A stretch of 64,000 nt of DNA, taken from the NCBI GenBank assembly GCA_964514545.1, contig CAZETR010000011.1, positions 26,294 to 90,293 on the forward strand, in the 5' to 3' direction. This DNA comes from an uncultured Gammaproteobacteria bacterium. Lineage in GTDB: Bacteria; Patescibacteriota; Microgenomatia; CAZETR01. Positions 9,681 through 58,145 of the stretch are shown here, in pieces. The notes beneath the pieces were generated by a model, which saw only the letters and a program-made list of their open reading frames with translations, had not been told where the DNA came from and searched no databases. The position numbers and the translations under genes are program-made. Every line of letters starts with the position of its first letter. The first letter of the stretch is position 1.

Positions 9681-9702
9681 TGGCCCTTTATATCACATTT
9701 TC

Positions 9703-15519: not shown

Positions 15520-15584
15520 GTTAAATTCTTTGAACTGGTCTATTCTATGGCCTTTTTGGTTTAAGTCAAGTAGAGCGGGGTTTA

Positions 15585-18151: not shown

Positions 18152-18166
18152 TAGCTGACGGTTCTA

Positions 18167-24607: not shown

Positions 24608-24613
24608 TTTGGG

Positions 24614-27471: not shown

Positions 27472-27473
27472 CG

Positions 27474-37375: not shown

Positions 37376-38178
37376 TACCGAGGTTTGATTACTTTCAAGT
37401 AAAGATTGAACATTTTAAACCCGATTCCGTTTTTAAAATCAATTGGCAGATTATTTCTCAATTTCATGTAACTGGCCCACTTGTTCTGTCGGTTTATCTT
37501 TTGGTTCGTGGAGCTGCCAATTTCATAGCGAAACTTTACCAGTTTCTTCGGAATAAGTTTAATCTGATGACTTTTTAGAATATGCGTGTACATTCCCCAG
37601 TCTTCCCCTCCTCTGCGATATTCATAGTCAAATCGATATTTGTTAACTGCGCTTCGTCTAAAAATTGAGTGGGAAAGTTGGCAGACCCAAAAAAAATCTT
37701 TTGATATATATCCGCTGTTGAAAATAAAATTTATGCTAAGCGCAAGCTGTCGAGCTAAGTTGATCAGCGATACTTTGAGCTTCTCAGCTAAAGGATATGG
37801 ACCGTAGAAATAGGGTTTGATGAGGCACATGGTTCCCATACAGGCGGGATTTGCAAATGCCTTTAGAGAAGCAACTAAAAAGCCGGGCTCCCATTGATCA
37901 TCTGAGTCAAGAAATGCAATCAATTTTCCTGCAGCATGTTTTATTCCGGTGTTTCTAGAACCCCCGGGTCCTTCTTCGTTCGTATTGGGTACAATTTTTA
38001 CTTTTGGATATCTTTTCTTGATGACGTTTTTGGGATAATCTAGGTTGTTGTCGATAACCAAAATTACCTCGATTTTCTCCAGTGGGACTTTTTGTAAATA
38101 TATAGACTGAATTGCTTGAATTGCATATTCAGGTCTGTGTTTATCAGGAATTATTACTGAGATATAAGCTTGCGTCAT
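37375..38178 (-). CDS. Glycosyltransferase family 2
   Basis: ISVIIP...GGSRNTGIKHAAGKLIAFLDSDDQW (DxD). Confidence 0.75.
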   Translation of the reverse strand: MTQAYISVIIPDKHRPEYAIQAIQSIYLQKVPLEKIEVILVIDNNLDYPKNVIKKRYPKVKIVPNTNEEGPGGSRNTGIKHAAGKLIAFLDSDDQWEPGFLVASLKAFANPACMGTMCLIKPYFYGPYPLAEKLKVSLINLARQLALSINFIFNSGYISKDFFWVCQLSHSIFRRSAVNKYRFDYEYRRGGEDWGMYTHILKSHQIKLIPKKLVKFRYEIGSSTNQKINRQNKWASYMKLRNNLPIDFKNGIGFKMFNLYLKVIKPR

Positions 38179-39461
38179 GGTCTGCTTAAATTCTTTGTTC
38201 CTCTCCCAAAATACTTCACTTCGGATTTCTTGATAACTCTTGGGTTTAAAATATTATTAGTGTCAAGAATTAGTTTGTGTCTCATTTTATTAATTTGACT
38301 TGAGGTGATGTTTCTGAATTCAGGCCATGGTGTCATAACTATCGCAAGGTCCAGTCCAGTAAAAAAATCGTCCAGACTCGTGCAAATTTTAAGGTGGGGG
38401 TGAGACACAATCTCGGTGCTGATTGCAGGATCGTAACCTATAATTCCTGCGACTTCGGATTTGAGAATAGTCGACAACGCAAGGGAGAGTGATCTGCGTA
38501 GTGTGTTTGTGTTTGGTTTATAAGTCAGGCCTAAAATTCCAATTATTTTATTTTTTGGCGATGGGAAAATGGTCTTTACCTTCTTAAGAATCATCTTTAA
38601 TCTGTCTGAATTTACCTCATAGACGGCACTTAATAGCTTTGGATTGTAACCGACGTTTGTAGCGATTTTTAGTAAAGCTTTTACGTCTCTGCCGAGGGTT
38701 CCGCCAGCGAATCCGGTACCTGGATTTATCGGTGCAAATCCGATTCTTTTATCCATTTTTAAAGCCTGAAGGATGTCTTTGTAGTCTCCGCCTACCTCTT
38801 CACATAAGTCACAAATTTCGCTGGTAAAGCTGATGGTTGTGGCCAAAAAGGCGTTTAGGGCATGTTTTACCATCTCGGCACTCTCGAATGACATCTCAAG
38901 CATCGGACACTTGAAGAAACTAAAGTCTTTCTTAAATTTATTTATCGCTCTATGACTCGCTGACCCAAGTACGATTCTATCTGGGCTGAGGAATGTTTGA
39001 TATGCATTGCCGAGTCTGATATTTTCGGGAAAATATATCACCTCTACATCTGCCACGCTTTTAAGTTGTCGCTCAAATCTTCGTGTGGTGCCTGTCGGGA
39101 TTTGGCTTGAAATTATAATTATTGACCCGGTGGAACAGTGGTGAGATATCAATTTGATTAGTCTTCTAACTGGCTCTATGTTCAACTCATCGTTTTCATC
39201 AACCGGTGTATCGATAGTGACAAAGATATATTTTTTGTTTTTTATCGCATCGGATGCGTCGAAAGAGAATCTAAGATTTTTATCAAGAGATTCTTTTAAT
39301 TTTTCGTTTAACCCAGGCTCAAAAATGGGTGGGTGGCCGTTTATTAACTCTCTGGTTACTTCAGGATCCAAATCGAATCCGGTGACGCGATACCCCAAAG
39401 AAGCCAACGAAGTCGCATAAATGCAACCCAGGTGCCATAGTCCGAGAATACCGATTTCCAT
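38175..39461 (-). CDS. Nucleotide-sugar 6-dehydrogenase (UDP-glucose/GDP-mannose dehydrogenase family)
   Basis: MEIGILGLWHLGCIYATSLASLGYRVTGFD N-terminal NAD fold plus a conserved central and C-terminal domain. Start placed at the internal MEIGILG. Confidence 0.85.
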   Translation of the reverse strand: MEIGILGLWHLGCIYATSLASLGYRVTGFDLDPEVTRELINGHPPIFEPGLNEKLKESLDKNLRFSFDASDAIKNKKYIFVTIDTPVDENDELNIEPVRRLIKLISHHCSTGSIIIISSQIPTGTTRRFERQLKSVADVEVIYFPENIRLGNAYQTFLSPDRIVLGSASHRAINKFKKDFSFFKCPMLEMSFESAEMVKHALNAFLATTISFTSEICDLCEEVGGDYKDILQALKMDKRIGFAPINPGTGFAGGTLGRDVKALLKIATNVGYNPKLLSAVYEVNSDRLKMILKKVKTIFPSPKNKIIGILGLTYKPNTNTLRRSLSLALSTILKSEVAGIIGYDPAISTEIVSHPHLKICTSLDDFFTGLDLAIVMTPWPEFRNITSSQINKMRHKLILDTNNILNPRVIKKSEVKYFGRGTKNLSRP

Positions 39462-39462
39462 A

Positions 39463-40350
39463 TTATTTTTCATAGAACGTACTGTTATCAATTCTCCTAA
39501 GCTTATATTTGTTTGCAGATAACTTTGACTCATGTTCCAGATCATCTATTGAGTCCCATTTGGCACTAATCAGCCTGCCTGTAATGTGGTCAGCCTTGCT
39601 TGAGCAGAGAAATGAGACTAATTCAGCGGCTAGTAGCGGGGAATCTCCACCCGATCTTTTTTGTTTAAGAGATCTCAAGTATATTTCTTTGCCGACTTTT
39701 TTTTCTCCTTGACCGAGAAGATAGTCGGTTAAGGATGAGTTAACAGCTCCTGGAGCGATACAATTTACCTGTATGTTGGAACCCTTTAGCTCTTCTGCAA
39801 CTACTTCAGTAAGTCCAGCTATTGATATTTTTGACGTAAAGTAGGCTGAGAATCTGGGAAGTGTGTTTTGTCCCCCGACTCCACCACCACAAAGGTTTAT
39901 TATTTTCCCCTTTTTGTTTTTTTTCATGACGGGGATGACCAGTTGGGTACAGTATACGGCCCCGAGTAAATTGACTTGGATGGTTTTTGACCATTCTGTG
40001 GGGTTTATATCTTCCAGTTTTCCTACGGGTCCGTAAATACCCGCGTTGTTAATAAGTACTTCGATTTTTTTTGAGATCTTCTTGGAGAAGTTGATGAGTT
40101 TTTTGCAATCTGCGGAATCGGACACATCTATTTTTAATCCGTATGCGCGAGTTTTTTTTGGGCTACTGTTTAGTGTCTCGAGGGCAATGTTAATGTCTTT
40201 TTTAGTTCTTGAGCATATAACAACTGTGTATCCATCTGCTATCAATTGCTTCGAAATAGCAATGCCTATCCCCCTTGCTCCACCGGTAATAATGGCTAAA
40301 TTTTTATTTTTCACTAACAGATGTATAGCTTGTTTACTATGTACTTTCAA
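39463..40350 (-). CDS. Short-chain dehydrogenase/reductase (SDR)
   Basis: LAIITGGARGIGIAI TGxxxGxG motif; classical SDR length. Confidence 0.85.
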   Translation of the reverse strand: MKVHSKQAIHLLVKNKNLAIITGGARGIGIAISKQLIADGYTVVICSRTKKDINIALETLNSSPKKTRAYGLKIDVSDSADCKKLINFSKKISKKIEVLINNAGIYGPVGKLEDINPTEWSKTIQVNLLGAVYCTQLVIPVMKKNKKGKIINLCGGGVGGQNTLPRFSAYFTSKISIAGLTEVVAEELKGSNIQVNCIAPGAVNSSLTDYLLGQGEKKVGKEIYLRSLKQKRSGGDSPLLAAELVSFLCSSKADHITGRLISAKWDSIDDLEHESKLSANKYKLRRIDNSTFYEK

Positions 40351-40394
40351 CCGTTATATTGATTTTGTTTTATCGATCGGTTATATAGAGTTCA

Positions 40395-41522
40395 ATGAAG
40401 GGAAAGGTTTTGGTGACAGGCGGAGCGGGGTTTATTGGTTCTCATATTGTAGACTTGTTGTTAACGAAGGGCTATAGCGTTCGAATCATTGACATATTAC
40501 AAGAGAGGGTTCATCCCAAGGGTAAACCAAAATATATTCCAAATGAAGTTGAATTTATCAAAGGAGATGTCTCAGATCCAAAGTTGATGCTAAAAGTTCT
40601 GAGGGAAATAGATTATGTCTTCCACCTCGCGGCATATCAGGATTATTTACCGGATTTTAGTCATTTTATCCATACAAATTCTGAGAGTTCAGCTTTGATG
40701 TTTGAGTTAATACTTGCAAATAAGCTTCCGGTAAAGAAAATTGTTTTTGCGTCATCTCAAGCTGTTGCGGGTGATGGAAAATGGAACTGTATAAAACACG
40801 GTCAGTTTTGGGCTGCGTCTCGACCAATTGAACAACTGGAAAGAGGCGAATGGGAGATTAAGTGCCCGAAGTGCCGCAAAGACTGTCAACATGTCTTAAT
40901 GACTGAAGATATCTGCAGGCCGATCACAACTTACGGTATTTCTAAATATGCGATAGAGCTATTAGCTCAAACTTTGGGAAATAAATATAATATTCCAACC
41001 GTGTGTATGCGGTATACGTATGTTCAGGGGCCAAGAAATTCTATTTATAATGCTTACTCAGGAATTCTGCGGGTGTTTGCAATGAGAATACTGAATAATA
41101 AATCTCCGGTCTTATTTGAGGACGGAATGGGCCTAAGGGACTATGTAAATGTGACGGATGTCGCAAGGGCAAATGTCTTGGTAATGGAAGATGACAGGGC
41201 GAATAATAAGGTATTCTTTGCGGGAGGGGGAAGGCCTTACACTGGGTTGGAGTTCGCACAGACGATGCTTAGGGTATTCGGCCGCAAATTGGAGCCGCAA
41301 ATACCGGGAATCTTTCGTGTTGGGGATACTAGATCCACGGTTTCTGATATTTCTGCCTTAGGAAAGTTGGGATGGAAACCCCAAAAAACCCTTGAGAAGT
41401 CCTTGACTGAATATCGAGATTGGCTCTTGGAACAAGGCAAAATTGAAGATGTTTCTGGCATGGCAATGAAAAATATGATAAAGCAGGGGGTAATTCGGAA
41501 AGTTAAAAATCATAAACAATGA
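40395..41522 (+). CDS. NAD-dependent epimerase/dehydratase with a Cys-rich insertion
   Basis: VLVTGGAGFIGSHIV; YGISKYAIE (YxxxK). Insert GKWNCIKHG...EIKCPKCRKDCQH contains C-x25-C-x2-C-x3-C. Confidence 0.8.
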   Translation: MKGKVLVTGGAGFIGSHIVDLLLTKGYSVRIIDILQERVHPKGKPKYIPNEVEFIKGDVSDPKLMLKVLREIDYVFHLAAYQDYLPDFSHFIHTNSESSALMFELILANKLPVKKIVFASSQAVAGDGKWNCIKHGQFWAASRPIEQLERGEWEIKCPKCRKDCQHVLMTEDICRPITTYGISKYAIELLAQTLGNKYNIPTVCMRYTYVQGPRNSIYNAYSGILRVFAMRILNNKSPVLFEDGMGLRDYVNVTDVARANVLVMEDDRANNKVFFAGGGRPYTGLEFAQTMLRVFGRKLEPQIPGIFRVGDTRSTVSDISALGKLGWKPQKTLEKSLTEYRDWLLEQGKIEDVSGMAMKNMIKQGVIRKVKNHKQ

Positions 41523-42235
41523 AGGGCATAGTTTTGGCCGGAGGGTTGGGAACTCGGCTAAATCCGGTTACAAAGGTCTTGAATAAACATATACTCCCCG
41601 TGGATGACAAGCCGATGTTTTACCATCCCCTGGGGACACTGATACGGTCTGGGATTAAGCAAGTAGCGGTAGTAAGCGGGCCGCCGTTCGGAAATCAAAT
41701 TAGAGAACTATTGAGATATTTCCCTTTCCCGGAAACAGTAAAATCTATTTATATTGATCAGCCTTCCCCTGCGGGTATGCCTGACGGTATAATGAGATGT
41801 AAGGCATTTGTGCAAAAGGAATCTGTGATTGTGATCGCAGGTGATAATTTATACGACCTGGATTTTACGACTGAGATCAAAAATTTTTCATCAGGAGCGT
41901 TGTCCTTTTTAAGAAAGACAAGCGATGCCCATAGGTTCGGAGTGCCGATCTATGATATAGATGGAAAATTGATCGGAATTGTGGAAAAACCGATTAACTT
42001 GGTGTCGGAATGGGCTGTAACAGGACCGCATATCTTTGATAATCGTGTGTTTGACATGATAGGGAATTTGAAACCATCTGATAGACGCGAACTGGAAATC
42101 TCTGATTTGAATTTTGAATATATTAAGTTGGGACAGCTGAAGCTTGTGAAACGTTCTGACTACTGGGTTGACATGGGCACTTTCGAATCATTATTGACTG
42201 CAGGTGAACATGCACATTCTAAAATGAAACAATGA
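41519..42235 (+). CDS. Sugar-1-phosphate nucleotidyltransferase (small RmlA/HddC-like)
   Basis: MKGIVLAGGLGTRLNPVT; 238 aa. Confidence 0.8.
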   Translation: MKGIVLAGGLGTRLNPVTKVLNKHILPVDDKPMFYHPLGTLIRSGIKQVAVVSGPPFGNQIRELLRYFPFPETVKSIYIDQPSPAGMPDGIMRCKAFVQKESVIVIAGDNLYDLDFTTEIKNFSSGALSFLRKTSDAHRFGVPIYDIDGKLIGIVEKPINLVSEWAVTGPHIFDNRVFDMIGNLKPSDRRELEISDLNFEYIKLGQLKLVKRSDYWVDMGTFESLLTAGEHAHSKMKQ

Positions 42236-43218
42236 TTGTTGTAAGAGCACCGTTTAGGATTCCCTTGGGTGGTGGAGGCACCGACTTGCCGACATATTAT
42301 TCTAAATTCGGCGGTAGTTTAATGTCAGTCGCTATAGATAAATACATTGTTGCAACTGTGAATAGGCCAATGATTGATAATTTAATTCGTCTTAAGTATT
42401 CGAAAACAGAAATTGTAGAGAAGGTTGACCAAGTAGAACATGCTTTAGTAAAGGAGGCTCTCCGCTTAACTGGTGTGCTTGACAGGGTCGAACTGTCCTG
42501 GATCGCAGACGTCCCCTTCGGAACCGGGATGGGGTCTTCGGGCACATTTCTAGTTTCGACTTTGAAAGCTCTGCATGCAATCGCAGGGAATGAAGTAACT
42601 ACAAGGCAGGTGGCCGAGGAAGCGTGTAAGATAGAGATCGAGATTCTCAAGTCACCGGTTGGGAAACAAGATCAGTACATGGCTGCTTACGGAGGTGTTA
42701 CAAGGCTAGAAATAGATAAATTCGGACATGTTGATGTAATTAAACCCAATATTTCAACTGAAACATTGAGAGACTTAGAAAGTAGTCTGGTGGTTTTTTA
42801 TACCGGCATAAGAAGATCTGGCGCAGGGGTGCTTGCAAAGCAGAATGCGGCAGTAAAAAGAGGAAGTTCAAAGGTCGAGAATAATTTGCATTTCATAAAA
42901 GAGCTGGGGATGGAGATTGTAAAGGCGTTGGAGGGAGGAAATATTAGAAGATTCGGAGCCCTACTGGATGCCCACTGGCAGTACAAAAGAAGGCTGTCGG
43001 ATAAGGTTTCCAGTGACGAAATTGATAGATGGTACCAGGAGGCTAGATATGCCGGGGCTATCGGTGGCAAGATAATGGGAGCCGGCGGCGGTGGCTTTAT
43101 GGTTTTTTGTTGCCCTGGAGACAAGGCGGAGTTAAGAGAATTGATGAAAAAAGAGGGACTCTTGGAGATGCATGTCCGCTTTGATATGGAGGGCGCAAAG
43201 GTAATGATAAACTTTTAA
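42232..43218 (+). CDS. GHMP-family sugar kinase (HddA-like)
   Basis: PFRIPLGGGGTD and PFGTGMGSSGTFLVST GHMP motifs; ATGA-coupled to the preceding nucleotidyltransferase. Confidence 0.8.
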   Translation: MIVVRAPFRIPLGGGGTDLPTYYSKFGGSLMSVAIDKYIVATVNRPMIDNLIRLKYSKTEIVEKVDQVEHALVKEALRLTGVLDRVELSWIADVPFGTGMGSSGTFLVSTLKALHAIAGNEVTTRQVAEEACKIEIEILKSPVGKQDQYMAAYGGVTRLEIDKFGHVDVIKPNISTETLRDLESSLVVFYTGIRRSGAGVLAKQNAAVKRGSSKVENNLHFIKELGMEIVKALEGGNIRRFGALLDAHWQYKRRLSDKVSSDEIDRWYQEARYAGAIGGKIMGAGGGGFMVFCCPGDKAELRELMKKEGLLEMHVRFDMEGAKVMINF

Positions 43219-43231
43219 TTTTTTTAATGTT

Positions 43232-44203
43232 ATGAAAGTAGGAATAATCGGTGCAGGGTTGATCGGAAGAAAAAGAGCAGGAGCGGTGGCAAAATCCGAT
43301 CAGATAATTGTTGTCGCTGATATCGATATTTCCAAGGCAGAAAATTTGGCTAATGAGTTGGTTGGTTGCGAGTCGACGGGAAAGTGGACTGAGGTCGTGG
43401 CAAGAAAGGATGTAGATGCTGTGTGTGTGGCAACAACCCACGAGTCTTTGGCCGAGATCTCTTTGGCAATTCTGACATCTGGAAAACATGTTTTGTGTGA
43501 GAAGCCACTGGGGATAAGGACGCCGGAGGTAGAAAGATGCGTGAAAGAGGCGAAGAAGAAAAAGCTGATCTATAAAACCGGATTCAATCATAGATTTCAT
43601 CCTGGAATTTTTAGAGCGCATGAGATGTTTAAAACCGACAAGATAGGCGAATTGATGTATATTAAAGCAACTTACGGAATTGGCGGGCGACCGGGTTATG
43701 AAAGGGAGTGGCGAATGAATAAAAGGATTTCCGGAGGCGGAGAGTTAATTGACCAAGGAACGCATTTAATCGATTTATCGAGGTGGTTTATGGGAGAAAT
43801 CGTTGATTTTAAAGCCGAGTTATTAACCTGTTTTTGGCCGGTAAGGGTCGAGGACAATGTCTTCATGTGGCTCAAAAATAAAAAGGCGGTTGCCGAGCTT
43901 CACGCCAGTTGGACGGAATGGAAAAATCGATTTGTGTTTGAAGTACATGGAACCCTCGGGTATTTGAAAATTAACGGACTTGGTGGTTCGTATGGAACAG
44001 AGACTTTGACCTGGGGTTTGAGGATTCCCGGCAAGGCCCCGGAGGAAAAAGCGTGGGCGTTTCCCGGTGAGGATGTGTCCTGGAAAGGAGAGTGGCAAAA
44101 TTTTAGACAAGCTGTTCGGGGGAAAGAAGAATTAAACGGGTCTGGGGAAGATGGACTAGAAATGCTACGGATCATCGAGAAAGCTTACAAGCATAAAACC
44201 TAA
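43232..44203 (+). CDS. Gfo/Idh/MocA-family NAD(P)-dependent oxidoreductase
   Basis: MKVGIIGAGLIGRKRA...HVLCEKPLG. Confidence 0.85.
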   Translation: MKVGIIGAGLIGRKRAGAVAKSDQIIVVADIDISKAENLANELVGCESTGKWTEVVARKDVDAVCVATTHESLAEISLAILTSGKHVLCEKPLGIRTPEVERCVKEAKKKKLIYKTGFNHRFHPGIFRAHEMFKTDKIGELMYIKATYGIGGRPGYEREWRMNKRISGGGELIDQGTHLIDLSRWFMGEIVDFKAELLTCFWPVRVEDNVFMWLKNKKAVAELHASWTEWKNRFVFEVHGTLGYLKINGLGGSYGTETLTWGLRIPGKAPEEKAWAFPGEDVSWKGEWQNFRQAVRGKEELNGSGEDGLEMLRIIEKAYKHKT

Positions 44204-44207
44204 TCCG

Positions 44208-44951
44208 GTGCTGTTGTGTTATACTCCATGCCGTATGAGTGTTGAAAATTTATTAAGCGGCCCTTTTTTTCTGGAAAGGCAGAGAAGGTATTTTCAGTAT
44301 TTTACTTTGATTCATTTAAGCGAAATGAGACGTTTGAAAGCTGGAGGGCTTTTTTTTACTGACGAAAAAAATGACTTTAGGGGGGTTGTCAGACATCAAT
44401 TGCTTGTGGGGGCAATGGCTCTAGAAGTGGGAGAATTGTGCGGACTGCCGCAAGATGAGTTGAATGAAGTGGTTTCTCAGGGTTTAACACACGATGAAGA
44501 TAAGCGAAGGCAGGTAAGAGATAGGAGTCGGACTGAAGAATTGACGCATGAATTACAAAAAGGCTCGGGACTGGCTCGCGCAACGAGTACTCATTTTGGC
44601 GATTTTGATAAATGGGGCATAAAAGAGTACATTTTGAGATTTTGTGATTCAAGTGTAACTACTCAAATACTTCCCTGGCGAGAACGAGTGGCAAAACTAT
44701 ACGAAACAAAGGCTGACGAGAATGAATTGGGAAAAGGCATATACGGAATGGGAATGTGGGATAAACTTACCCAAGCAATGGAGGTAGTTGAACAAGAGCT
44801 GTACACAAGAATCATTGAGAGGCACGCGGAGCTTGAGGATCGATTCCCTAGCCAAGAAGATCTGCACCAGATTGTAATAGAAAGGATATTTGAGAAAATT
44901 ATTAATTATTCAAGCAGATCGTATCCAAAATTGAAATCAGGCTCAGACTAG
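44208..44951 (+). CDS. Hypothetical protein, possible HD-domain protein (paralog of the 9003..9680 product)
   Basis: RGVVRHQLLVGAMALEV...GLTHDEDKRRQVRDR aligns with RNVVEHQLVQLAAAEAL...ATHDWRMRLDKR of the other gene. Confidence 0.4.
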   Translation: MLLCYTPCRMSVENLLSGPFFLERQRRYFQYFTLIHLSEMRRLKAGGLFFTDEKNDFRGVVRHQLLVGAMALEVGELCGLPQDELNEVVSQGLTHDEDKRRQVRDRSRTEELTHELQKGSGLARATSTHFGDFDKWGIKEYILRFCDSSVTTQILPWRERVAKLYETKADENELGKGIYGMGMWDKLTQAMEVVEQELYTRIIERHAELEDRFPSQEDLHQIVIERIFEKIINYSSRSYPKLKSGSD

Positions 44952-45686
44952 TTTGAAGTTGGGATCTTTAGAAGCTAGTTCGTAGGCTTGGTCAAATTGA
45001 CTAATAGTTTCCCGAAGTCTGCGGTTGGAAAATGATTGGCGCAGGACCTCCGGCGTTACGGTAACTATATGAGCTCCAAGGGAAAAGGCCTGTCTTATCT
45101 GCTCGGCAGTCCTGATGCTGCCAACAATGACGCGGACATTGCGATGGTTCCTGGTAACCAAGTAAGCAAGGGTTGACTCAAGAACGGCCTCTGGTCCAGG
45201 GCCTTGGTCATATTTTTCATGGCTCTCTTGAGTCCTGGCCCAAAAGAGGCTAATAAAATTGGCGCCGGCGTCAGCTGCGAGAGCTAGTTGTGAAAAAACT
45301 AAACCCAGGGTGGCGTTAACTGGAATATTACGTTTTCTTAGCTCTGGTATAACCTTTAACCATTTAAAATCTGGAGCCAACGGTACTTTAACGACTGCGT
45401 TGGAGGGATGTGCGTCTGCGTATTTAACTCCCAGGTCTACCATTTGTCTAGCCGTCATCTTGGTACTGGGAATTTCGACTGACACCGGAAAACCTGGTCC
45501 AACTATTTGACAAATTTCATTTAGTCGGGCCGGAATATCTAGGACTCCGTCTTTTAGAAGTATGACCGGGTTCGTGGTGAGCCCGGTAAGGACAGCCCTC
45601 CATCTTTTTATTTGCTCAGGGTCGCTTGAGTCAAGGAAGTGGCCGGAGACGTTAACTTCTGGTCTTAGGATTTCTGTGTTTGTCAT
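44943..45686 (-). CDS. Transaldolase-family protein (Fsa/TalC-like)
   Basis: LDSSDPEQIKRW...GLTTNPVIL and VVKVP...NATLGLVFSQ match transaldolase/FSA motifs. Confidence 0.7.
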   Translation of the reverse strand: MTNTEILRPEVNVSGHFLDSSDPEQIKRWRAVLTGLTTNPVILLKDGVLDIPARLNEICQIVGPGFPVSVEIPSTKMTARQMVDLGVKYADAHPSNAVVKVPLAPDFKWLKVIPELRKRNIPVNATLGLVFSQLALAADAGANFISLFWARTQESHEKYDQGPGPEAVLESTLAYLVTRNHRNVRVIVGSIRTAEQIRQAFSLGAHIVTVTPEVLRQSFSNRRLRETISQFDQAYELASKDPNFKLV

Positions 45687-46311
45687 TTATGACACCTGGG
45701 AAATTTTTTATCATATTTTTAAGGGCAAAGATAATGGCATGATGCAGAACGACATGGGTTGCCTCGATCCCAGGTGTTCCGTATGGCTCCGAATTAATTG
45801 GTACTACCAAGCATACGTCTGCCATCTTCATCATGGCTCCCCCATTAAATCCCGCAAAGCCGATTATTTTTGCCTTACGGTCTTTGGCTAGTTTCATCGC
45901 CTGAACCAAGTTTTGCGACCACAGTCCAGCATCTCCCTCGCCTGCCCCGCCGTGGACTGAAAATCCAATCAAAACATCTTTGCTCGTAATCCAGGGGTCA
46001 AGTTGGCCGGCAAAAACGCTCCCCCATCCTTTGTCGTTGGTCCAAGCGCTGACCAATGGAATGTTGTCTACTAAGGAAATTGCCCTAAGCCCTTTTTTGC
46101 CGTCTGCCATGACGGTTTTTGCCAGGTCTGCTGCAAAATGTGTGGCTGTGGAAGCTGACCCTCCGCATCCCATGGTAAAAATGGTGCCTGAATTTTTCCA
46201 TGTTTCAAAAAGAATGTTTATAACTTTTTGAAGGTCATCATTTGACGAAAAGTGGATGGCTGATTTGACTATTTCAAAAAAATACCCGCTTAGTGAAAAG
46301 CTATTATCCAT
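45652..46311 (-). CDS. SIS-domain sugar-phosphate isomerase, GmhA-like (sedoheptulose-7-phosphate isomerase family)
   Basis: IFTMGCGGSASTATHFAADL matches GmhA GNGGSAADAQHFAAEL; about 200 aa. Confidence 0.75.
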   Translation of the reverse strand: MDNSFSLSGYFFEIVKSAIHFSSNDDLQKVINILFETWKNSGTIFTMGCGGSASTATHFAADLAKTVMADGKKGLRAISLVDNIPLVSAWTNDKGWGSVFAGQLDPWITSKDVLIGFSVHGGAGEGDAGLWSQNLVQAMKLAKDRKAKIIGFAGFNGGAMMKMADVCLVVPINSEPYGTPGIEATHVVLHHAIIFALKNMIKNFPGVINDKHRNPKTRS

Positions 46312-46389
46312 TTCCTGGGGCAGGATATGAAACTTTTATTCTATTGGAAATTGGTTGTCAATTAGCAAAGTATTGTATATCATGCCGAT

Positions 46390-47832
46390 ATGTTCAAAAA
46401 TGCGTGGTTTGATTCAATTGCGGCAAATCGGGACGAATGGATAAAGAGGAATTCTTATTATTACGGCTTTATAGAAAACTTAGTGAAATTCTACGTTCCT
46501 GGGGAGGCAAGTGTACTTGAAGTCGGTTGCGGAACCGGAAACTTGATCGGAAAACTAAAAAATAAAATGCGCGTTGGGGTTGACGTTAGCCGGGAAATGC
46601 TTAAAATTGCTAACCGGCACGCGAGAGGCGTTAAGTATATAAGAGCAGACGTGGAAGATGAAGCGGTTGGCGGAAAATATGACTGGGTTTTGGCTGTCAA
46701 CTTGGTTGGATATCTGTCAGATGTTTACAAAGCCTTTGAAAAACTAAAATTGAATTGTATGTCTGACTCGCGAGTCTTGGTTATAACCTACAACCACTTG
46801 TGGGAACCGATCTTAAAACTTGGAGAATTGCTCGGTCTTAGGTCGAAACAACCGGAACAAAACTGGCTTGGAGTCGATGATGTGAAGAATATTTTTTCTG
46901 CAATTGGCTTTGAACTTGTTCAGACAGACTTTAGGTTACTTGTTCCGTTCGACCTGGGGCCAGTTTCCAACCTGATTAACAACCTCTTCGCAAGCTTACC
47001 GGTCATTAGGCATTTTAGCCTATTACAGTGTTTAATTTTCCGACTAGAAAGTCGAACCGAGCGAAATTTGTCCGTTTCCATTATTGTTCCGGCTAGGAAT
47101 GAAGAAGGAAATATTCCAAATATAATCAAACTTCTGCCAAAATTCGGGAAATGGCAGGAAATAATATTTGTCGAGGGGCATTCGAAAGATAGGACGTGGG
47201 AGGAGATAAAGAAAATTTCAAATATCCCATTGAAAATTTCTGAAAATTTATCAAGGGTAAACAAATATCAAAGATCAAATAAATTTGTAGTTAGAGCTTA
47301 TAAACAAAAGGGTATGGGCAAGGCAGATGCGGTTAGATTGGGATTTGAGCAAGCGAAGGGTGAATTGTTGATGGTGATGGATGCTGATTTGACTGTTAGC
47401 CCAGCAGAACTGCTCAAGTTCTATAGCGTAATCTCTCAAGGTAAAGCTGACTTTGCAAATGGCAGTCGGTTGGTCTATCCGATGGAAAAGGAATCAATGA
47501 GGTTTCTAAACAAAGTTGGAAATAAAGTTTTCGGAGTCCTTTTGTCTTTTATCCTGGGACAGTCTTTCAAGGATACTCTGTGTGGTATGAAGGCTCTACT
47601 AAAGAAAGACTATGACAAGATTAAAAGAGGCCGAGCTTTTTTCGGTGATTTTGACCCTTTTGGCGATTTTGATTTGATTTTCGGTGCTGCGAAATTGAGT
47701 TTAAAGATTCTGGAAATACCTGTCAGGTACTGGGAAAGAAAGTATGGGGCAACTAATATTAACCGTTTTAAGCACGGGTTGATGTTGCTGCGGATGACCT
47801 TCTTTGCATTTACAAAATTTGTGTTTTACTAG
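46390..47832 (+). CDS. Bifunctional fusion: N-terminal SAM methyltransferase plus C-terminal GT2 (Dpm1-like)
   Basis: N-terminal LEVGCGTGNLIGKL SAM motif. C-terminal SVSIIVPARNEEGNI...MVMDADLT GT2 core, followed by a hydrophobic tail. Confidence 0.75.
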   Translation: MFKNAWFDSIAANRDEWIKRNSYYYGFIENLVKFYVPGEASVLEVGCGTGNLIGKLKNKMRVGVDVSREMLKIANRHARGVKYIRADVEDEAVGGKYDWVLAVNLVGYLSDVYKAFEKLKLNCMSDSRVLVITYNHLWEPILKLGELLGLRSKQPEQNWLGVDDVKNIFSAIGFELVQTDFRLLVPFDLGPVSNLINNLFASLPVIRHFSLLQCLIFRLESRTERNLSVSIIVPARNEEGNIPNIIKLLPKFGKWQEIIFVEGHSKDRTWEEIKKISNIPLKISENLSRVNKYQRSNKFVVRAYKQKGMGKADAVRLGFEQAKGELLMVMDADLTVSPAELLKFYSVISQGKADFANGSRLVYPMEKESMRFLNKVGNKVFGVLLSFILGQSFKDTLCGMKALLKKDYDKIKRGRAFFGDFDPFGDFDLIFGAAKLSLKILEIPVRYWERKYGATNINRFKHGLMLLRMTFFAFTKFVFY

Positions 47833-50525: not shown

Positions 50526-51193
50526 CTTCTTTGGGTAATTTTAAATGTCGGAATTGATAAAAAGACTTCAATTGCTTCGAGCAGAGAGACGCCTTTGAAT
50601 TGGTCAAGGTAAATGTTTTCTATTGGTATTTCGGTGTATTTTATTCCGGCTGAACCGATTCTGGCAATCATTTCGGTTTCGACACCATAGCGTTCTGACA
50701 CCCATTTTATTTGTCTGTATGCCGAGGAGCGAAATGCCCTGAATCCGCAAAGGAGGTCTTTGACGTAGATGCCATAGATACCGGAGACCAGAATCGCTGC
50801 GACCCTGTTTCCTAATTTGCGAACAATTGGTACTGGGTGGTGGCCGGTTCTAATACCAATTGCAACGTTGTATTTTTTGAGGGCCTTGATAAATTTAGAA
50901 ATGTGAGAAGGTTTGTGCTGACCGTCTGCGTCAAAGGTAATAATCGCCTTAGCTCCGACGGAAATTGCGTATTCAATCCCCTTCCTTAACGCATATCCTT
51001 TACCCTTATTAAGGGGGAGTGACATTAGTGTTATTGGCAATTGTCTGGCTATTTTAGGAGTGTTATCGGTTGATCCGTCGTCGACGAGAATAATGTTTTT
51101 GCACTCCTTTCGAACACCCTGAATAACTTCGCGGATGTGTCTTTCTTCATTATAGGCAGGAATAACGACATAGGTATTGGATCTATTTATCAT
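50522..51193 (-). CDS. GT2 polyprenyl-phosphate sugar synthase-like (Dpm1-type)
   Basis: YVVIPAYNEERHI...LVDDGSTDNT...TFDADGQHKP. Confidence 0.8.
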   Translation of the reverse strand: MINRSNTYVVIPAYNEERHIREVIQGVRKECKNIILVDDGSTDNTPKIARQLPITLMSLPLNKGKGYALRKGIEYAISVGAKAIITFDADGQHKPSHISKFIKALKKYNVAIGIRTGHHPVPIVRKLGNRVAAILVSGIYGIYVKDLLCGFRAFRSSAYRQIKWVSERYGVETEMIARIGSAGIKYTEIPIENIYLDQFKGVSLLEAIEVFLSIPTFKITQRR

Positions 51194-52334: not shown

Positions 52335-53168
52335 CTAGCGCCAGTCTTGAGCTATTCTTTCTCGCGTCTGCGGATTGTGTTTAAATTCCCAGTATTTTAC
52401 GTAGGCTGATGCTTTGGTTAATCCGCTATAAAAGGCAAAAATAAATCCCGGGAAACCGTCTACGAATCCCAGGTGGCGAACGTAAATGGAAATGAATATT
52501 AACACGGGTGAAAAAATAAAGAACCTAATAAAGCTAATAGGTCCGGTTCCCGGGTTGATTGCGAATAATTCGTGGGCAAAGAGGGTTGAATAACGATTGT
52601 CCTTCGTAATATAGGCTGAAAATGAAGGTGTTGGTAAATGGATTAGTTCGTTTTCTAACCAACCGATTTGTCCGGCTATTTCGATTTGTTCATGGACACT
52701 CGTCTGCGGAAATTTGCCCTTTCTTCGACGGAATAACCTGACTACCGGGTCAGGGTAGTGACCACCCTTCTTGATCCAACGACCGAGAAACTGTTTTTTT
52801 CGCTTGATCCAGTAGCCATCAGCGGCATTCTTTGACTCTATAACTCTTTTTATCTCGTCTGCTAACTGCGGTGAAACCCTTTCATCAGCATCAAGCTGCA
52901 AAACCCAGTCTCCCCTTGCCATACCGATGGCCTTCTGTTTCAGAATATGAAAAAGTGGCTTATTTTCCGTTACGATTGTTCTCGCCCCGAGGTTTTTTGC
53001 AATTTCAACTGTGTGGTCATGCGAATTTCCATCTACTATTACAACCTCTTCTGCAAATTTTTTAACCGAGTCAAGACAGTCAACAATGTTTTGTTCTTCA
53101 TTGAAGGTCGCGAGGCAAACGGAAAGTTTAATTTTAGACCCTGAATAATTCAAATGCTGGTTTGCCAT
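52335..53168 (-). CDS. Glycosyltransferase family 2 with C-terminal membrane anchor
   Basis: LSVCLATFNEE...VIVDGNSHDHT...LQLDADE, followed by two hydrophobic helices. Confidence 0.8.
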   Translation of the reverse strand: MANQHLNYSGSKIKLSVCLATFNEEQNIVDCLDSVKKFAEEVVIVDGNSHDHTVEIAKNLGARTIVTENKPLFHILKQKAIGMARGDWVLQLDADERVSPQLADEIKRVIESKNAADGYWIKRKKQFLGRWIKKGGHYPDPVVRLFRRRKGKFPQTSVHEQIEIAGQIGWLENELIHLPTPSFSAYITKDNRYSTLFAHELFAINPGTGPISFIRFFIFSPVLIFISIYVRHLGFVDGFPGFIFAFYSGLTKASAYVKYWEFKHNPQTRERIAQDWR

Positions 53169-56450: not shown

Positions 56451-56453
56451 GAT

Positions 56454-58139: not shown

Positions 58140-58145
58140 GGCGAG

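What the first reader, a model, noticed from the sequence alone, without database searches (positions are those of the whole stretch)
40395..46311. Inferred NDP-heptose (glycero-manno-heptose) biosynthesis module
A transaldolase/Fsa-like enzyme, a GmhA-like SIS isomerase (GCGGSASTATHFAADL), a GHMP kinase and a small sugar-1-P nucleotidyltransferase are co-located. In the GDP-D-glycero-α-D-manno-heptose pathway of S-layer glycan producers these correspond to sedoheptulose-7-P supply, GmhA, HddA and HddC. A KdsC-like HAD phosphatase elsewhere in the cluster could serve as GmhB. The flanking SDR epimerase/dehydratases and a Gfo/Idh/MocA oxidoreductase could further tailor the heptose (deoxy or epimer forms).
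Basis: inference. Interest (0 to 1): 0.55.

Follow-up and report, generated by a model that had tools for sequence, protein, structure and literature searches.

The report
Transaldolase-dependent nucleotide higher-sugar (octose-like) module
The genes are real and form a widely conserved operon for a nucleotide-activated 7- or 8-carbon sugar, but its composition fits the eight-carbon (octose) route of lincomycin biosynthesis better than the classical heptose route, and its usual phosphatase is missing, with an uncharacterised HD-type enzyme in its place.

Summary
Observation confirmed: seven intact ORFs lie at 40395-46311 (SDR, nucleotidyltransferase, GHMP kinase, Gfo/Idh/MocA, unknown, transaldolase, SIS). 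The functional block extends to 38175-47832.

Interpretation partly supported. The kinase and SIS are closer to HddA and GmhA than to fuco-/galactokinase or DiaA. None of the four "heptose" proteins reaches its equivalog cutoff. The SIS has Asp/Glu where GmhA has catalytic Glu/Gln. The nucleotidyltransferase is RmlA-like, not HddC-like. No GmhB-type HAD exists in the 64 kb.

Of 54 loci carrying kinase homologs from many bacterial and archaeal phyla (≥5 kb flanks), 46 hold the SIS; 42 of these 46 also hold a transaldolase. Many also hold a Cys-less NDP-sugar-dehydrogenase-like protein, a Gfo/Idh/MocA enzyme and a short-chain reductase. This enzyme set, and the order NT-kinase-oxidoreductase, match LmbR/N/P/K/O plus LmbM/L/Z, the GDP-octose pathway of lincomycin.

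Best reading (about 0.5): a dTDP/UDP-activated, probably 8-deoxy, octose for surface glycans. Heptose remains possible (about 0.3).

The 247-aa ORF belongs to a small H..HD..D family found only inside this module. It sits exactly where a fully syntenic relative has the HAD phosphatase.

No Lmb protein sequence could be obtained, so orthology is untested.

The parts
38175..39545 (-). NDP-sugar dehydrogenase-like protein (UDP-Glc/GDP-Man dehydrogenase fold) that lacks the catalytic cysteine (Thr283). The probable true start is near 39473. Proposed LmbL-like partner in side-chain dehydration or oxidation.
   Evidence: All three UDPG_MGDP_dh domains are present and TIGR03026 scores 312 bits. Alignment to UGDH 4a7p shows GGSCFPKD replaced by GGTLGRD. 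The same Cys-to-Thr change (His in two loci) occurs in all module-linked homologs, whereas unrelated UGDH paralogs keep Cys. The gene is syntenic in L091, L002, L069 and L082.
39463..40350 (-). Classical short-chain dehydrogenase/reductase (FabG-like). Proposed ketoreductase of the tailoring branch. The called start in the public contig corresponds to 40314.
   Evidence: PF00106 E=2e-50. Co-located with the kinase in 24 of 54 loci, 22 of them with the transaldolase. Syntenic in L091, L002, L069 and L082.
40395..41522 (+). Extended SDR, GalE-like NDP-sugar epimerase (LmbM-like), with a 45-aa insertion that carries a conserved CxxH...CPxC motif.
   Evidence: PF01370 E=2e-41. The best solved relative is T. 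maritima GalE 4zrm, matched in two pieces flanking residues 123-171. It has S..Y180xxxK184 and no dehydratase Asp-Glu pair. The insertion motif is conserved in 12 homologs next to the kinase. L091 homolog is 78% identical and L084 homolog 73%.
41519..42235 (+). Short (238 aa) RmlA-like sugar-1-phosphate nucleotidyltransferase. Probably pyrimidine (dTTP/UTP) specific.
   Evidence: RmlA 4ho0 E=3e-48 against HddC 5xhw E=3e-9. TIGR01207 181 bits against NF049965 HddC 42 bits. The Gln81 and Trp216 equivalents of RmlA Q83 and W224 are kept. It overlaps both neighbours by 4 bp. The same 238-240 aa type occurs in L091, L088, L084 and L090.
42232..43218 (+). GHMP-family anomeric sugar-phosphate kinase. 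It is HddA/LmbP-like and belongs to a distinct, very widespread family.
   Evidence: PF00288 and PF08544. The best family is HddA at 150 bits, far below the 600 cutoff. WcbL 4usk E=5e-41. At least 7444 homologs were found; some are named HddA by JGI. 579 genome loci matched; the 80 kept come from many phyla.
43232..44203 (+). Gfo/Idh/MocA NAD(P) oxidoreductase (LmbZ-like position, directly after the kinase).
   Evidence: PF01408, PF22725 and PF02894. Present in 20 of 54 loci, 19 of them with the transaldolase. L091 homolog 68% identical, L084 homolog 58%.
44208..44951 (+). Member of a small uncharacterised family with the H..HD..D metal-binding signature (H63, H95-D96, D147). Proposed phosphohydrolase that does the job of the missing GmhB/LmbK-type HAD. 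The GTG start at 44208 is supported by N-terminal homology; the public gene call of 208 aa is truncated.
   Evidence: No Pfam or NCBIfam hit even at E=5. 53 representatives among 1.84 billion proteins. Invariant H, HD and D. AF2 model pLDDT 90, all-helical. The three best PDB fold hits are HD phosphohydrolases, but they are weak. All 8 genomic contexts examined lie inside this module. The ORF occupies the exact slot of the HAD in the syntenic locus L091.
44943..45686 (-). Small (class TalC/Fsa-size) transaldolase with a complete transaldolase-type active site. Proposed LmbR-like maker of the ketose phosphate.
   Evidence: PF00923 E=2e-27. D19, N39, E71, K100, N124/T126, S146/F148/R151 and S190/R192 align with catalytic residues of solved transaldolases. 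It has Glu+Phe, not the Gln+Tyr of Fsa. The subfamily has only 23 detected relatives, and all 4 sampled lie in the same module.
45652..46311 (-). SIS-domain ketose-phosphate isomerase related to GmhA/LmbN but with an altered active site. It overlaps the transaldolase start by 35 nt.
   Evidence: PF13580. TIGR00441 92 bits, below the 209 cutoff. GmhA structures E=1e-18 to 1e-10, DiaA 4e-7. The H58-D62-E183-H186-H191 pattern against H-E-Q-H-H of GmhA, and the longer loop, are conserved in 58 of 58 module-linked SIS proteins.
46390..47832 (+). Methyltransferase-GT2 fusion. The GT2 part is like polyprenyl-phosphate sugar synthases (AglJ/DPM/ArnC-like). It is a conserved neighbour and the candidate first user of the activated sugar.
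   Evidence: PF00535 plus methyltransferase domains. AglJ TIGR04182 91 bits. Syntenic next to the SIS in L091 (58%) and L002 (55%).

Best explanation
The block 38175-47832 is one biosynthetic module. It builds a nucleotide-activated higher-carbon sugar from pentose-phosphate-pathway intermediates and tailors it for the large glycan-assembly island around it.

Proposed route:
1. The dedicated transaldolase transfers a C3 dihydroxyacetone unit from fructose-6-P or sedoheptulose-7-P onto an aldose phosphate. The acceptor is most likely ribose-5-P, giving octulose-8-P, as LmbR does.
2. The SIS isomerase, translationally coupled to the transaldolase, converts the ketose-P to the aldose-P.
3. The GHMP kinase phosphorylates C1.
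4. A phosphatase removes the terminal phosphate. Here this is the HD-motif protein, standing in for the HAD (GmhB/LmbK-type) enzyme that relatives use.
5. The RmlA-like nucleotidyltransferase makes the NDP-sugar, probably dTDP or UDP.
6. The GalE-like SDR epimerises it.
7. The Cys-less dehydrogenase-like protein plus the Gfo/Idh/MocA enzyme oxidise or dehydrate the side chain, as LmbL/LmbZ do (6,8-dehydration).
8. The FabG-like SDR reduces the resulting ketone where lincomycin biosynthesis transaminates. The product would be an NDP-8-deoxy-octose.
9. The MT-GT2 fusion and the many GT-C enzymes then use the sugar.

What is shown: gene content, family assignments, retained or altered catalytic residues, and conserved cross-phylum synteny. 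What is inferred: every substrate and product, carbon number included.
For: Cross-phylum conservation:
- Kinase homologs (45-63% identical) from CPR, DPANN and other archaea, Legionella/Coxiellaceae, Verrucomicrobiota, Planctomycetota, Chloroflexota, Acidobacteriota and Lachnospiraceae carry the same neighbours.
- So does the cultured pathogen Lawsonia intracellularis, on plasmid 3.
- In 54 loci with at least 5 kb of flank on both sides, the SIS is present in 46 and the transaldolase in 42. The transaldolase is in 42 of 46 SIS-positive loci and 0 of 8 SIS-negative loci (Fisher p=5e-7).
- Gfo is present in 20 loci, 19 of them with the transaldolase.
- Two different small-transaldolase lineages fill the slot: the window type, and TIGR02134 in L069. 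This argues the activity itself is required.
- All four sampled members of the window-type transaldolase subfamily lie in this module.
- The transaldolase active site is intact and transaldolase-type.

Match to the lincomycin pathway:
- The lmb sugar sub-cluster is lmbR-S-O-P-Z / lmbN-M-L, which encode transaldolase, aminotransferase, NT, kinase, oxidoreductase / isomerase, epimerase, dehydrogenase. The genes overlap by 4 bp (PMC12945683; PMC7014725).
- LmbR condenses F6P or S7P with R5P to octulose-8-P, and LmbN isomerises it (PMC5854111; PMC7014725).
- LmbK is the C8 phosphatase and LmbO the guanylyltransferase (PMC4351081).
- The window has NT-kinase-Gfo in the same order, also with 4-bp overlaps.

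Altered enzymes:
- The dehydrogenase-like protein cannot make a uronic acid by the canonical mechanism, because Cys is replaced by Thr283. The change is conserved in module-linked homologs.
- The SIS active site differs from GmhA in a conserved way.

Phosphatase slot:
- L091 is syntenic gene for gene (53-82% identity), except that a HAD sits where the window has the HD-motif ORF.
- L092 has kinase-HD-HAD, then TAL-SIS on the opposite strand.
Against: No Lmb or Ccb protein sequence could be obtained. The match to the lincomycin pathway therefore rests on enzyme families and gene order, not on tested orthology. That LmbL is UGDH-like and LmbZ is Gfo/Idh/MocA-like comes from my memory of the primary literature; the papers I could read only call them 'dehydrogenase' and 'NAD(P)-dependent oxidoreductase'.

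Sequence searches name GmhA and HddA as the nearest characterised families. Automated JGI annotation calls close homologs HddA.

A transaldolase could in principle just raise sedoheptulose-7-P supply.

The RmlA-like NT keeps the Trp that packs against C6 of glucose in RmlA. This is not what one would naively expect for a sugar with a C6-C8 side chain.

The HD-motif family usually co-occurs with the HAD (5 of 8 contexts). Its general role may therefore differ from the terminal-phosphate phosphatase. Its fold matches to HD enzymes are weak (E about 0.2-0.5, TM 0.31-0.42). A GmhB-type gene may exist elsewhere on the genome; the window is 64 kb of a 220-kb contig.

The 54 loci are not phylogenetically independent, so the Fisher p-values overstate significance.

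I know of no report of an unbranched aldo-octose in a bacterial surface glycan, and none was found in the searches.
Confidence: 0.5

Rival explanations
1. The module makes an NDP-heptose (D-glycero-alpha-D-manno-heptose or a gluco epimer) from sedoheptulose-7-P. SIS acts as GmhA, the GHMP kinase as HddA, the NT as HddC. The transaldolase only boosts sedoheptulose-7-P supply. The oxidoreductases make deoxy or epimeric heptoses.
For: GmhA and HddA are the nearest characterised families for the SIS and the kinase. JGI names close kinase homologs HddA. The HAD in relatives is GmhB-like: PRK08942 110 bits, TIGR00213 93 bits. CPR and DPANN organisms have reduced central metabolism, so an extra transaldolase could matter. 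Four SIS-containing loci lack a nearby transaldolase.
Against: All scores lie far below the equivalog cutoffs. The SIS has a conserved Asp/Glu swap and a loop insertion relative to GmhA. The NT is RmlA-like, a family that normally takes gluco-configured sugar-1-phosphates, and not HddC-like. A dedicated transaldolase accompanies the SIS in 42 of 46 loci, including Legionella, Planctomycetota, Verrucomicrobiota and Desulfobacteraceae. These lineages are expected to make sedoheptulose-7-P anyway (my inference; not checked). From my own knowledge, characterised GDP-heptose clusters (C. jejuni, B. pseudomallei, Y. pseudotuberculosis, A. thermoaerophilus) have no transaldolase.
Confidence: 0.3
2. 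Same pathway logic, but the transaldolase uses another acceptor. Examples are arabinose-5-P, a deoxy-pentose phosphate or a hexose-6-P. The product would then be a differently configured octose or a nonose, not the LmbR/LmbN sugar.
For: The window-type transaldolase and the SIS are both divergent from characterised enzymes (61 and 71 bits to the best PDB relatives). Two transaldolase lineages are used in different loci. Nothing tested here fixes the acceptor.
Against: There is no positive evidence for any alternative acceptor. The only characterised pathway with this enzyme set uses ribose-5-P.
Confidence: 0.12
3. The genes do not form one pathway. The RmlA-like NT plus SDR make an ordinary dTDP/UDP-hexose, the transaldolase is the housekeeping pentose-phosphate enzyme, and the SIS and kinase act elsewhere.
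For: The NT looks like a genuine glucose-1-P thymidylyltransferase core with Q83 and W224 equivalents. The transaldolase and SIS are on the opposite strand from the NT and kinase.
Against: The + strand genes overlap by 4 bp. The same nine genes travel together, in various orders and on one strand, in distant phyla. L069 carries SDR-UGDH-FabG-Gfo-kinase-NT-SIS-HAD-TAL as one operon; Lawsonia plasmid 3 has the same set. The window-type transaldolase subfamily was found only in this module.
Confidence: 0.05

Closest known systems
Lincosamide GDP-octose pathway of Streptomyces lincolnensis / S. caelestis: LmbR, LmbN, LmbP, LmbK, LmbO, then LmbM, LmbL, LmbZ(CcbZ), LmbS
   Same: The enzyme families match: small transaldolase, SIS isomerase, GHMP kinase, sugar-1-P nucleotidyltransferase, GalE-like epimerase, 'dehydrogenase' and NAD(P) oxidoreductase. 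The local order NT-kinase-oxidoreductase is the same. Both clusters are tightly packed with 4-bp overlaps. Relatives of the window also carry the HAD phosphatase (LmbK equivalent). Sources.
   Different: The window is not in an antibiotic cluster. It sits in a surface-glycan island with a Wzm/Wzt transporter and many GT2 and GT-C enzymes, in a CPR-like genome. It has no PLP aminotransferase (LmbS); a FabG-like reductase is present instead. It has no HAD phosphatase; an HD-motif protein is present instead. The NT is RmlA-like, which suggests a pyrimidine nucleotide, whereas LmbO uses GTP. The SIS has no carrier-protein fusion. Sequence-level orthology to Lmb proteins could not be tested.
GDP-D-glycero-alpha-D-manno-heptose pathway (GmhA, HddA, GmhB, HddC) of capsule, O-antigen and S-layer glycan clusters
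   Same: The core logic is the same: SIS isomerase, GHMP C1-kinase, terminal phosphatase, NT. GmhA and HddA are the nearest characterised sequence families.
   Different: All four equivalog tests fail. The SIS active site is altered (D62/E183). The NT belongs to another subfamily. There is no GmhB. A dedicated transaldolase and LmbL/LmbZ-type tailoring genes are present; canonical heptose clusters lack them (the last point is from my own knowledge).
RmlA glucose-1-phosphate thymidylyltransferase
   Same: About 230 residues align with E=3e-48. The GGxGTRLxPxT loop, the Q83 equivalent (Gln81), Asp/Asn of GDN, EKP and the W224 equivalent (Trp216) are kept.
   Different: It is 55 residues shorter and lacks the C-terminal part of RmlA (query 1-231 aligns to RmlA 1-236 of 293-297 residues). 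It scores 181 bits against a cutoff of 361. It is coupled by overlapping codons to the GHMP kinase. It is not found with RmlB/C/D.
HD-domain metal-dependent phosphohydrolases (for example YfbR-type nucleotidases, DatZ, SP1746)
   Same: The invariant H...HD...D signature and an all-helical fold. The top three PDB fold hits are HD-domain enzymes.
   Different: No Pfam HD-domain hit even at E=5. Structural similarity is weak (TM 0.31-0.42). The family is tiny and confined to this sugar module. No activity is known.
UDP-glucose / GDP-mannose 6-dehydrogenases
   Same: Full three-domain architecture. TIGR03026 scores 312 bits, above its cutoff.
   Different: The catalytic Cys is replaced by Thr283 and the following Lys by Arg. 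The change is conserved in module-linked homologs. Uronic-acid formation by the canonical thioester mechanism is therefore excluded.

Membership tests
GDP-D-glycero-alpha-D-manno-heptose pathway (GmhA/HddA/GmhB/HddC) | SIS protein is a GmhA equivalog (TIGR00441 at or above 209 bits, with the catalytic Glu and the Gln/His set) | tested here: not met
   92 bits. Asp62 replaces the Glu and Glu183 replaces the Gln, and the phosphate loop is lengthened. The changes are conserved in 58 of 58 module-linked SIS proteins.
GDP-D-glycero-alpha-D-manno-heptose pathway (GmhA/HddA/GmhB/HddC) | GHMP kinase is an HddA equivalog (NF049969 at or above 600 bits) | tested here: not met
   150 bits. HddA is nevertheless the best-scoring family, and WcbL/HddA structures are the best PDB hits.
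GDP-D-glycero-alpha-D-manno-heptose pathway (GmhA/HddA/GmhB/HddC) | GmhB-type HAD-IIIA 7-phosphatase present | tested here: not met
   tblastn with two module HADs against the 64 kb finds nothing better than E=0.069, and that hit is to the KdsC-like ORF of another operon. The rest of the genome was not available.
GDP-D-glycero-alpha-D-manno-heptose pathway (GmhA/HddA/GmhB/HddC) | HddC-type guanylyltransferase | tested here: not met
   NF049965 42 bits against a cutoff of 300. RmlA 181 bits. PDB RmlA 3e-48 against HddC 3e-9.
GDP-D-glycero-alpha-D-manno-heptose pathway (GmhA/HddA/GmhB/HddC) | Substrate is sedoheptulose-7-P and product is a heptose | not testable with these tools
   Needs enzymology or nucleotide-sugar mass spectrometry.
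Lincosamide-type NDP-octose pathway (LmbR/N/P/K/O + M/L/Z/S) | Dedicated small transaldolase encoded with the SIS isomerase | tested here: met
   TAL and SIS overlap by 35 nt in the window. TAL is present in 42 of 46 SIS-containing loci. The active site is intact.
Lincosamide-type NDP-octose pathway (LmbR/N/P/K/O + M/L/Z/S) | GHMP kinase plus sugar-1-P nucleotidyltransferase plus NAD(P) oxidoreductase in the order O-P-Z | tested here: met
   The window order is NT-kinase-Gfo with 4-bp overlaps. The lmb order is lmbR-S-O-P-Z. The match is at family level only.
Lincosamide-type NDP-octose pathway (LmbR/N/P/K/O + M/L/Z/S) | HAD phosphatase (LmbK) | tested here: not met
   Absent from the window. 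Present in 52 of 80 related loci and at the same slot in syntenic L091. An HD-motif protein takes its place here.
Lincosamide-type NDP-octose pathway (LmbR/N/P/K/O + M/L/Z/S) | Epimerase (LmbM), dehydrogenase (LmbL) and oxidoreductase (LmbZ) tailoring set | tested here: inconclusive
   A GalE-like SDR, a Cys-less UGDH-like protein and a Gfo/Idh/MocA protein are present and co-conserved. That LmbL and LmbZ belong to these same families comes from memory, not from a tool result.
Lincosamide-type NDP-octose pathway (LmbR/N/P/K/O + M/L/Z/S) | PLP aminotransferase (LmbS) giving the 6-amino sugar | tested here: not met
   No aminotransferase lies in 38175-47832. A FabG-like reductase is present instead.
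Lincosamide-type NDP-octose pathway (LmbR/N/P/K/O + M/L/Z/S) | Sequence orthology to Lmb/Ccb proteins; octulose-8-P as intermediate | not testable with these tools
   Lmb sequences and the primary papers (PMC3486926, PMC3932030, PMC7547251) were not obtainable.
HD-domain phosphohydrolase superfamily (ORF 44208-44951) | H...HD...D metal-ligand signature on an all-helical fold | tested here: met
   H63, H95-D96 and D147 are invariant in 25 sequences. The AF2 model is all-helical with pLDDT 90.
HD-domain phosphohydrolase superfamily (ORF 44208-44951) | Significant profile or fold match to known HD domains | tested here: inconclusive
UDP-glucose/GDP-mannose 6-dehydrogenase (ORF 38175-39545) | Catalytic cysteine in GGxCxxKD | tested here: not met
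   GGTLGRD, with Thr283.

The most novel reading that the evidence does not exclude
This is a widespread route to a nucleotide-activated straight-chain octose (probably 8-deoxy) used for cell-surface glycans. It occurs in many bacterial and archaeal phyla, including CPR, DPANN, Legionella-like organisms and Lawsonia intracellularis. It would be the ancestral, non-antibiotic counterpart of the lincomycin sugar pathway. In this lineage a previously unrecognised HD-type phosphohydrolase family has taken over the terminal-phosphate phosphatase step from the HAD enzyme.
Probability: 0.4. Interest if true: 0.78.

Novelty: new variant of a known kind. Interest (0 to 1): 0.62.

Why it matters
Automated annotation files this family as an HddA/GmhA heptose pathway or under generic names ('galactokinase', 'SIS domain-containing protein', 'transaldolase' in RefSeq for Lawsonia).

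If the transaldolase-dependent reading is right, thousands of genomes encode an eight-carbon sugar that I have not seen reported in bacterial or archaeal surface glycans. The lincomycin octose pathway would then be a recruitment from ordinary glycan biosynthesis and not an antibiotic-specific invention.

The finding also yields three concrete, cheap-to-test enzyme predictions:
- a GmhA-like isomerase with a swapped acid/base pair;
- a UGDH-fold enzyme without its cysteine;
- an orphan HD-motif family tied to one pathway.

It also points to a culturable organism (Lawsonia intracellularis) and compact single-strand operons (for example the Legionella-like locus L069) in which to test them.

For CPR bacteria, whose envelopes are almost uncharacterised, it names a candidate unusual sugar.

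Tried and rejected
1. Getting Lmb/Ccb protein sequences or the primary papers. The DOI and PMC look-ups for Wang 2020, Sasaki 2012 and Lin 2014 are not held. NCBIfam has no Lmb-specific models. Two Streptomyces plasmid hits to the kinase never reached the listed rows. No direct orthology test was therefore possible.

2. tblastn of the transaldolase against plasmids. It returned only generic Fsa/Tal genes at about 30% identity and was uninformative.

3. Word-based homolog search for the 247-aa ORF. It found only itself. The exhaustive HMMER search was needed.

5. Metagenome locus scan with HD-family alignments.

6. First co-occurrence count using only window proteins as queries. It under-counted transaldolases of the TIGR02134 lineage and suggested that TAL tracks the Gfo/UGDH genes. 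The recount with extra queries shows TAL tracks the SIS itself.

7. 'HD protein is a simple replacement of GmhB everywhere'. Rejected, because in 5 of 8 contexts both are present. Only differential loss or redundancy is claimed.

8. Fsa-type aldolase (dihydroxyacetone donor) for the TAL-like gene. Judged less likely, because it has Glu71/Phe148 and not Gln/Tyr.

9. SDR 40395-41522 as a 4,6-dehydratase. Judged unlikely, because it has no Asp-Glu pair after the Ser and its best match is GalE.

10. Literature searches for octose pathways in polysaccharide clusters. They found nothing beyond lincosamides and branched octoses.

Full report
**1. What is there**

The window is a 40% GC stretch without tRNA or Rfam hits. 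It is almost entirely filled with glycan-biosynthesis genes:
- many GT2 glycosyltransferases;
- methyltransferases;
- a Wzm/Wzt ABC exporter;
- long multi-pass proteins, of which those scanned at 51190-52323 and 59759-61483 hit PMT_2, the GT-C family.

The closest protein relatives are from Candidate Phyla Radiation bacteria (Daviesbacteria, Amesbacteria). An identical 8-kb metagenome contig exists.

- extended SDR, 40395-41522(+);
- nucleotidyltransferase, 41519-42235(+);
- GHMP kinase, 42232-43218(+);
- Gfo/Idh/MocA oxidoreductase, 43232-44203(+);
- an unannotatable 247-aa ORF, 44208-44951(+);
- a small transaldolase, 44943-45686(-);
- a SIS protein, 45652-46311(-).

The first three overlap by 4 bp. 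The SIS and transaldolase overlap by 35 nt.

**2.

It does not fall.
- The kinase's best solved relatives are the heptose-7-P kinases WcbL (4usk, E=5e-41), 3k85 and 4n3o. Fucokinase scores 1e-18 and galactokinase 3e-13. Its best NCBIfam model is HddA.
- The SIS matches thirteen GmhA sequences (1e-18 to 4e-8) ahead of DiaA (4e-7), and no KpsF.

Membership in the heptose pathway nevertheless fails on every defining feature I could test.
- HddA scores 150 bits against a cutoff of 600. GmhA scores 92 against 209. HddC scores 42 against 300.
- The SIS has Asp62 where GmhA has the catalytic Glu, and Glu183 where GmhA has Gln. It also has a 9-residue longer phosphate loop.
- The nucleotidyltransferase is an RmlA-type enzyme (4ho0 E=3e-48; HddC 5xhw E=3e-9). 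It keeps RmlA's pyrimidine-contacting Gln and the Trp next to C6, and it lacks the C-terminal part of RmlA.
- No GmhB-type HAD is encoded anywhere in the 64 kb.
It sits inside another tightly packed operon: inositol-monophosphatase-like, NT, class-II-aldolase-like, HAD, shikimate-dehydrogenase-like.

**3. The module is conserved far beyond this genome**

A scan of one genome per species found 579 loci encoding a relative of the kinase. The best 80 share 44-63% identity. They come from Verrucomicrobiota, Planctomycetota, Chloroflexota, Acidobacteriota, Legionella/Coxiellaceae, Lachnospiraceae, Micrarchaeota, Woesearchaeota, Thermoplasmatota and others.

I mapped the window's proteins, and then additional queries from two distant loci, onto these loci.
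- Among the 54 loci with at least 5 kb on both sides, the SIS is present in 46, an NT in 50 and a transaldolase in 42. A GmhB-like HAD is present in 43 by one count and 35 by another.
- The transaldolase accompanies the SIS in 42 of 46 loci and is never present without it (0 of 8).
- A FabG-like SDR occurs in 24 loci, a Gfo/Idh/MocA enzyme in 20 and a UGDH-like protein in 9. These are found almost only where the transaldolase is (22/24, 19/20, 9/9).
- In a Legionella-like MAG the whole set is one co-directional operon: SDR-UGDH-like-FabG-like-Gfo-kinase-NT-SIS-HAD-transaldolase.
- Plasmid 3 of the cultured pathogen Lawsonia intracellularis carries the same genes. RefSeq names them only generically.
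- The transaldolase slot is filled by two different small-transaldolase lineages: the window type, and TIGR02134, which scores above its cutoff in L069.
- The window-type lineage is small, with 23 detected relatives. All four members I looked up sit SIS-TAL next to HAD-kinase-NT-SDR.

These loci are related to each other, so the counts are not independent events. The pattern is still hard to reconcile with an incidental 'supply' gene.

**4. Details of the enzymes**

- The transaldolase keeps every catalytic residue of solved small transaldolases: D19, N39, E71, Schiff-base K100, N124/T126, S146, F148, R151, S190/R192. It carries the Glu/Phe pair of transaldolases, not the Gln/Tyr pair of fructose-6-P aldolases.
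- All 58 module-linked SIS proteins share H-D-E-x-H against GmhA's H-E-Q-H-H, and the longer loop. They form a distinct isomerase subfamily.
- The UGDH-like protein has all three domains (TIGR03026, 312 bits), but its catalytic Cys is Thr283. The same replacement (His in two loci) occurs in every module-linked homolog, while unrelated UGDH paralogs in the same loci keep Cys. It cannot make a uronic acid by the usual thioester mechanism.
- The extended SDR is GalE-like (T. maritima 4zrm) with S...Y180xxxK184 and no dehydratase Asp-Glu pair. It has a 45-residue insertion with a conserved CxxH...CPxC motif.

**5. The 247-aa ORF**

- It has no Pfam or NCBIfam hit, even at E=5. A word-based search found only itself.
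- Exhaustive HMMER against 1.84 billion representatives found 53 relatives.
- Their alignment has invariant H63, H95-D96 and D147, the H..HD..D signature of HD-domain metal phosphohydrolases.
- It shows that the N-terminus upstream of the public 208-aa gene call is homologous, so the GTG at 44208 is the likelier start.
- An AlphaFold model built on this alignment is confident (pLDDT 90) and all-helical.
- Its three best PDB matches are HD phosphohydrolases (SP1746, DatZ, an HD-GYP domain). The scores are weak: E 0.2-0.5, TM 0.31-0.42.
- All eight genomic contexts recovered for family members lie in this same module:
  - SDR-NT-FabG-Gfo-kinase-HD-HAD (L084);
  - SIS-HAD-HD-TAL (L085);
  - kinase-HD-HAD (L086);
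  - SIS-HD (L087);
  - kinase-HD-HAD, then TAL-SIS on the opposite strand (L092);
  - TAL, then HAD-NT-HD on the opposite strand (L093);
  - HD and SIS convergent (L094);
  - one member next to a GHMP kinase.
- The closest fully sampled relative of the window, L091, is syntenic gene for gene at 53-82% identity. The one exception is that a GmhB-like HAD occupies the slot that the HD-motif ORF occupies in the window.
- The states are therefore HAD only (common), both (some), and HD only (this window). That is the pattern expected of overlapping function. It does not show that the HD protein's normal role is the terminal-phosphate phosphatase.
- A paralog (32% identity over 74 residues) sits at 9003-9680 next to a cytidylyltransferase-like gene.

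**6. Comparison with what is known**

From my own knowledge, the only characterised pathway with this composition is the sugar branch of lincomycin/celesticetin biosynthesis. That composition is a small transaldolase, a GmhA-like isomerase, an HddA-like kinase, a GmhB-like phosphatase and a nucleotidyltransferase.
- LmbR condenses fructose-6-P or sedoheptulose-7-P with ribose-5-P to octulose-8-P, and LmbN isomerises it (PMC5854111; PMC7014725).
- LmbM, LmbL, LmbZ/CcbZ and LmbS convert GDP-octose to GDP-lincosamide (PMC12945683).
- The lmb genes are arranged lmbR-S-O-P-Z and lmbN-M-L with 4-bp overlaps. The order is transaldolase, aminotransferase, NT, kinase, oxidoreductase / isomerase, epimerase, dehydrogenase.
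- The window has NT-kinase-oxidoreductase in the same order. It has counterparts, at family level, for seven of the nine Lmb sugar enzymes.
- It lacks the aminotransferase and has a ketoreductase-type SDR instead. It lacks the HAD and has the HD-motif protein instead.

From memory of the primary literature, not verified here:
- LmbL is UGDH-like and LmbZ is Gfo/Idh/MocA-like, and together they carry out a 6,8-dehydration. That reaction needs a three-carbon exocyclic chain, which an octose has and a heptose lacks.
- The LmbN product is gluco-configured, which would suit an RmlA-type NT better than a manno-heptose.

I could not obtain any Lmb sequence. The resemblance is therefore in enzyme families, order and logic, not proven orthology.

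**7. Verdict**

The module does make a nucleotide-activated higher sugar by GmhA/HddA-like chemistry (high confidence).
- 'GDP-D-glycero-manno-heptose with a supply transaldolase' is not the best fit.
- I put about 0.5 on a transaldolase-built octose tailored to an 8-deoxy form, about 0.3 on a heptose, and about 0.12 on another transaldolase-derived higher sugar. Very little weight goes on the genes being unrelated.
- The module as such appears uncharacterised. Public annotation is generic or calls it HddA, and literature searches found no description.
- It is best described as a new variant of a known kind of pathway, with three unusual components: an Asp/Glu-swapped isomerase, a Cys-less UGDH-fold enzyme and an orphan HD-motif family.

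Noticed in passing
window 8520-10326: A paralog of the HD-motif protein lies at 9003-9680(-). It is 32% identical over the N-terminal 74 residues and has H..HD. It sits directly next to a 158-aa cytidylyltransferase-like gene at 8520-8996(-), PF01467, and an unannotatable 207-aa ORF at 9703-10326(+). Several distant family members (P0145, P0150) resemble this paralog more than the one in the finding.
   Followed up: partly
window 16458-21900: A second, unrelated sugar or cyclitol activation operon on the minus strand. It contains an inositol-monophosphatase-family protein, a weak NTP_transferase, a class-II aldolase/GatZ-like protein, the KdsC-like HAD (19153-19671), a shikimate-dehydrogenase-like protein and a 469-aa protein with a weak APH-kinase match. 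Two ORFs with no family hit lie just downstream (14815-16412). Its product is unknown.
   Followed up: partly
window 38175-39545: A UDP-glucose/GDP-mannose-dehydrogenase-fold protein whose catalytic Cys is Thr283 (GGTLGRD). The substitution is conserved in all module-linked homologs from distant phyla. This defines a Cys-less subfamily of unknown chemistry.
   Followed up: yes
window 40760-40910 (residues 123-171 of the SDR at 40395-41522): A 45-residue insertion in a GalE-like SDR with a conserved CxxH...CPxC motif, apparently a zinc knuckle. It is absent from all solved relatives and conserved in 12 homologs next to the kinase.
   Followed up: partly
window 53134-63183, 25426-29396, 33138-34928: A tandem array of six roughly 520-575-aa multi-pass membrane proteins, plus three further paralogs of 596-681 aa. 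Only the member scanned at 59759-61483 (and the shorter 51190-52323) hit PMT_2 (GT-C). The others share N-terminal sequence motifs but had no Pfam hit. The copy number in one island is unusually high. These enzymes would use polyprenyl-phosphate-linked sugars.
   Followed up: partly
window 23375-25429: A Wzm/Wzt-type ABC exporter (ABC2_membrane; ABC_tran plus the Wzt C-terminal carbohydrate-binding domain). This indicates an ABC-transporter-dependent polysaccharide route in a CPR-like genome.
   Followed up: no
L002 (CAZUBK010000001.1): The genome record holding the closest species-level relative of the module (kinase 63% identical, same MT-GT2/SIS/TAL arrangement) is labelled 'uncultured Pseudomonadales'. 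Its gene content here looks like that of the CPR relatives. The bin may be mislabelled or contaminated.
   Followed up: no
L069 12882-13619; window 44943-45686: The transaldolase slot of the module is filled by two different lineages. The TIGR02134 'Staphylococcus/Coxiella-type' transaldolase scores above cutoff in the Legionella-like locus. A small separate lineage fills it in the window and its relatives. This suggests independent recruitment of the activity.
   Followed up: partly
window 1-64000: GC skew is positive in 29 of the 32 2-kb windows across the 64 kb, although most genes are on the minus strand.
   Followed up: no
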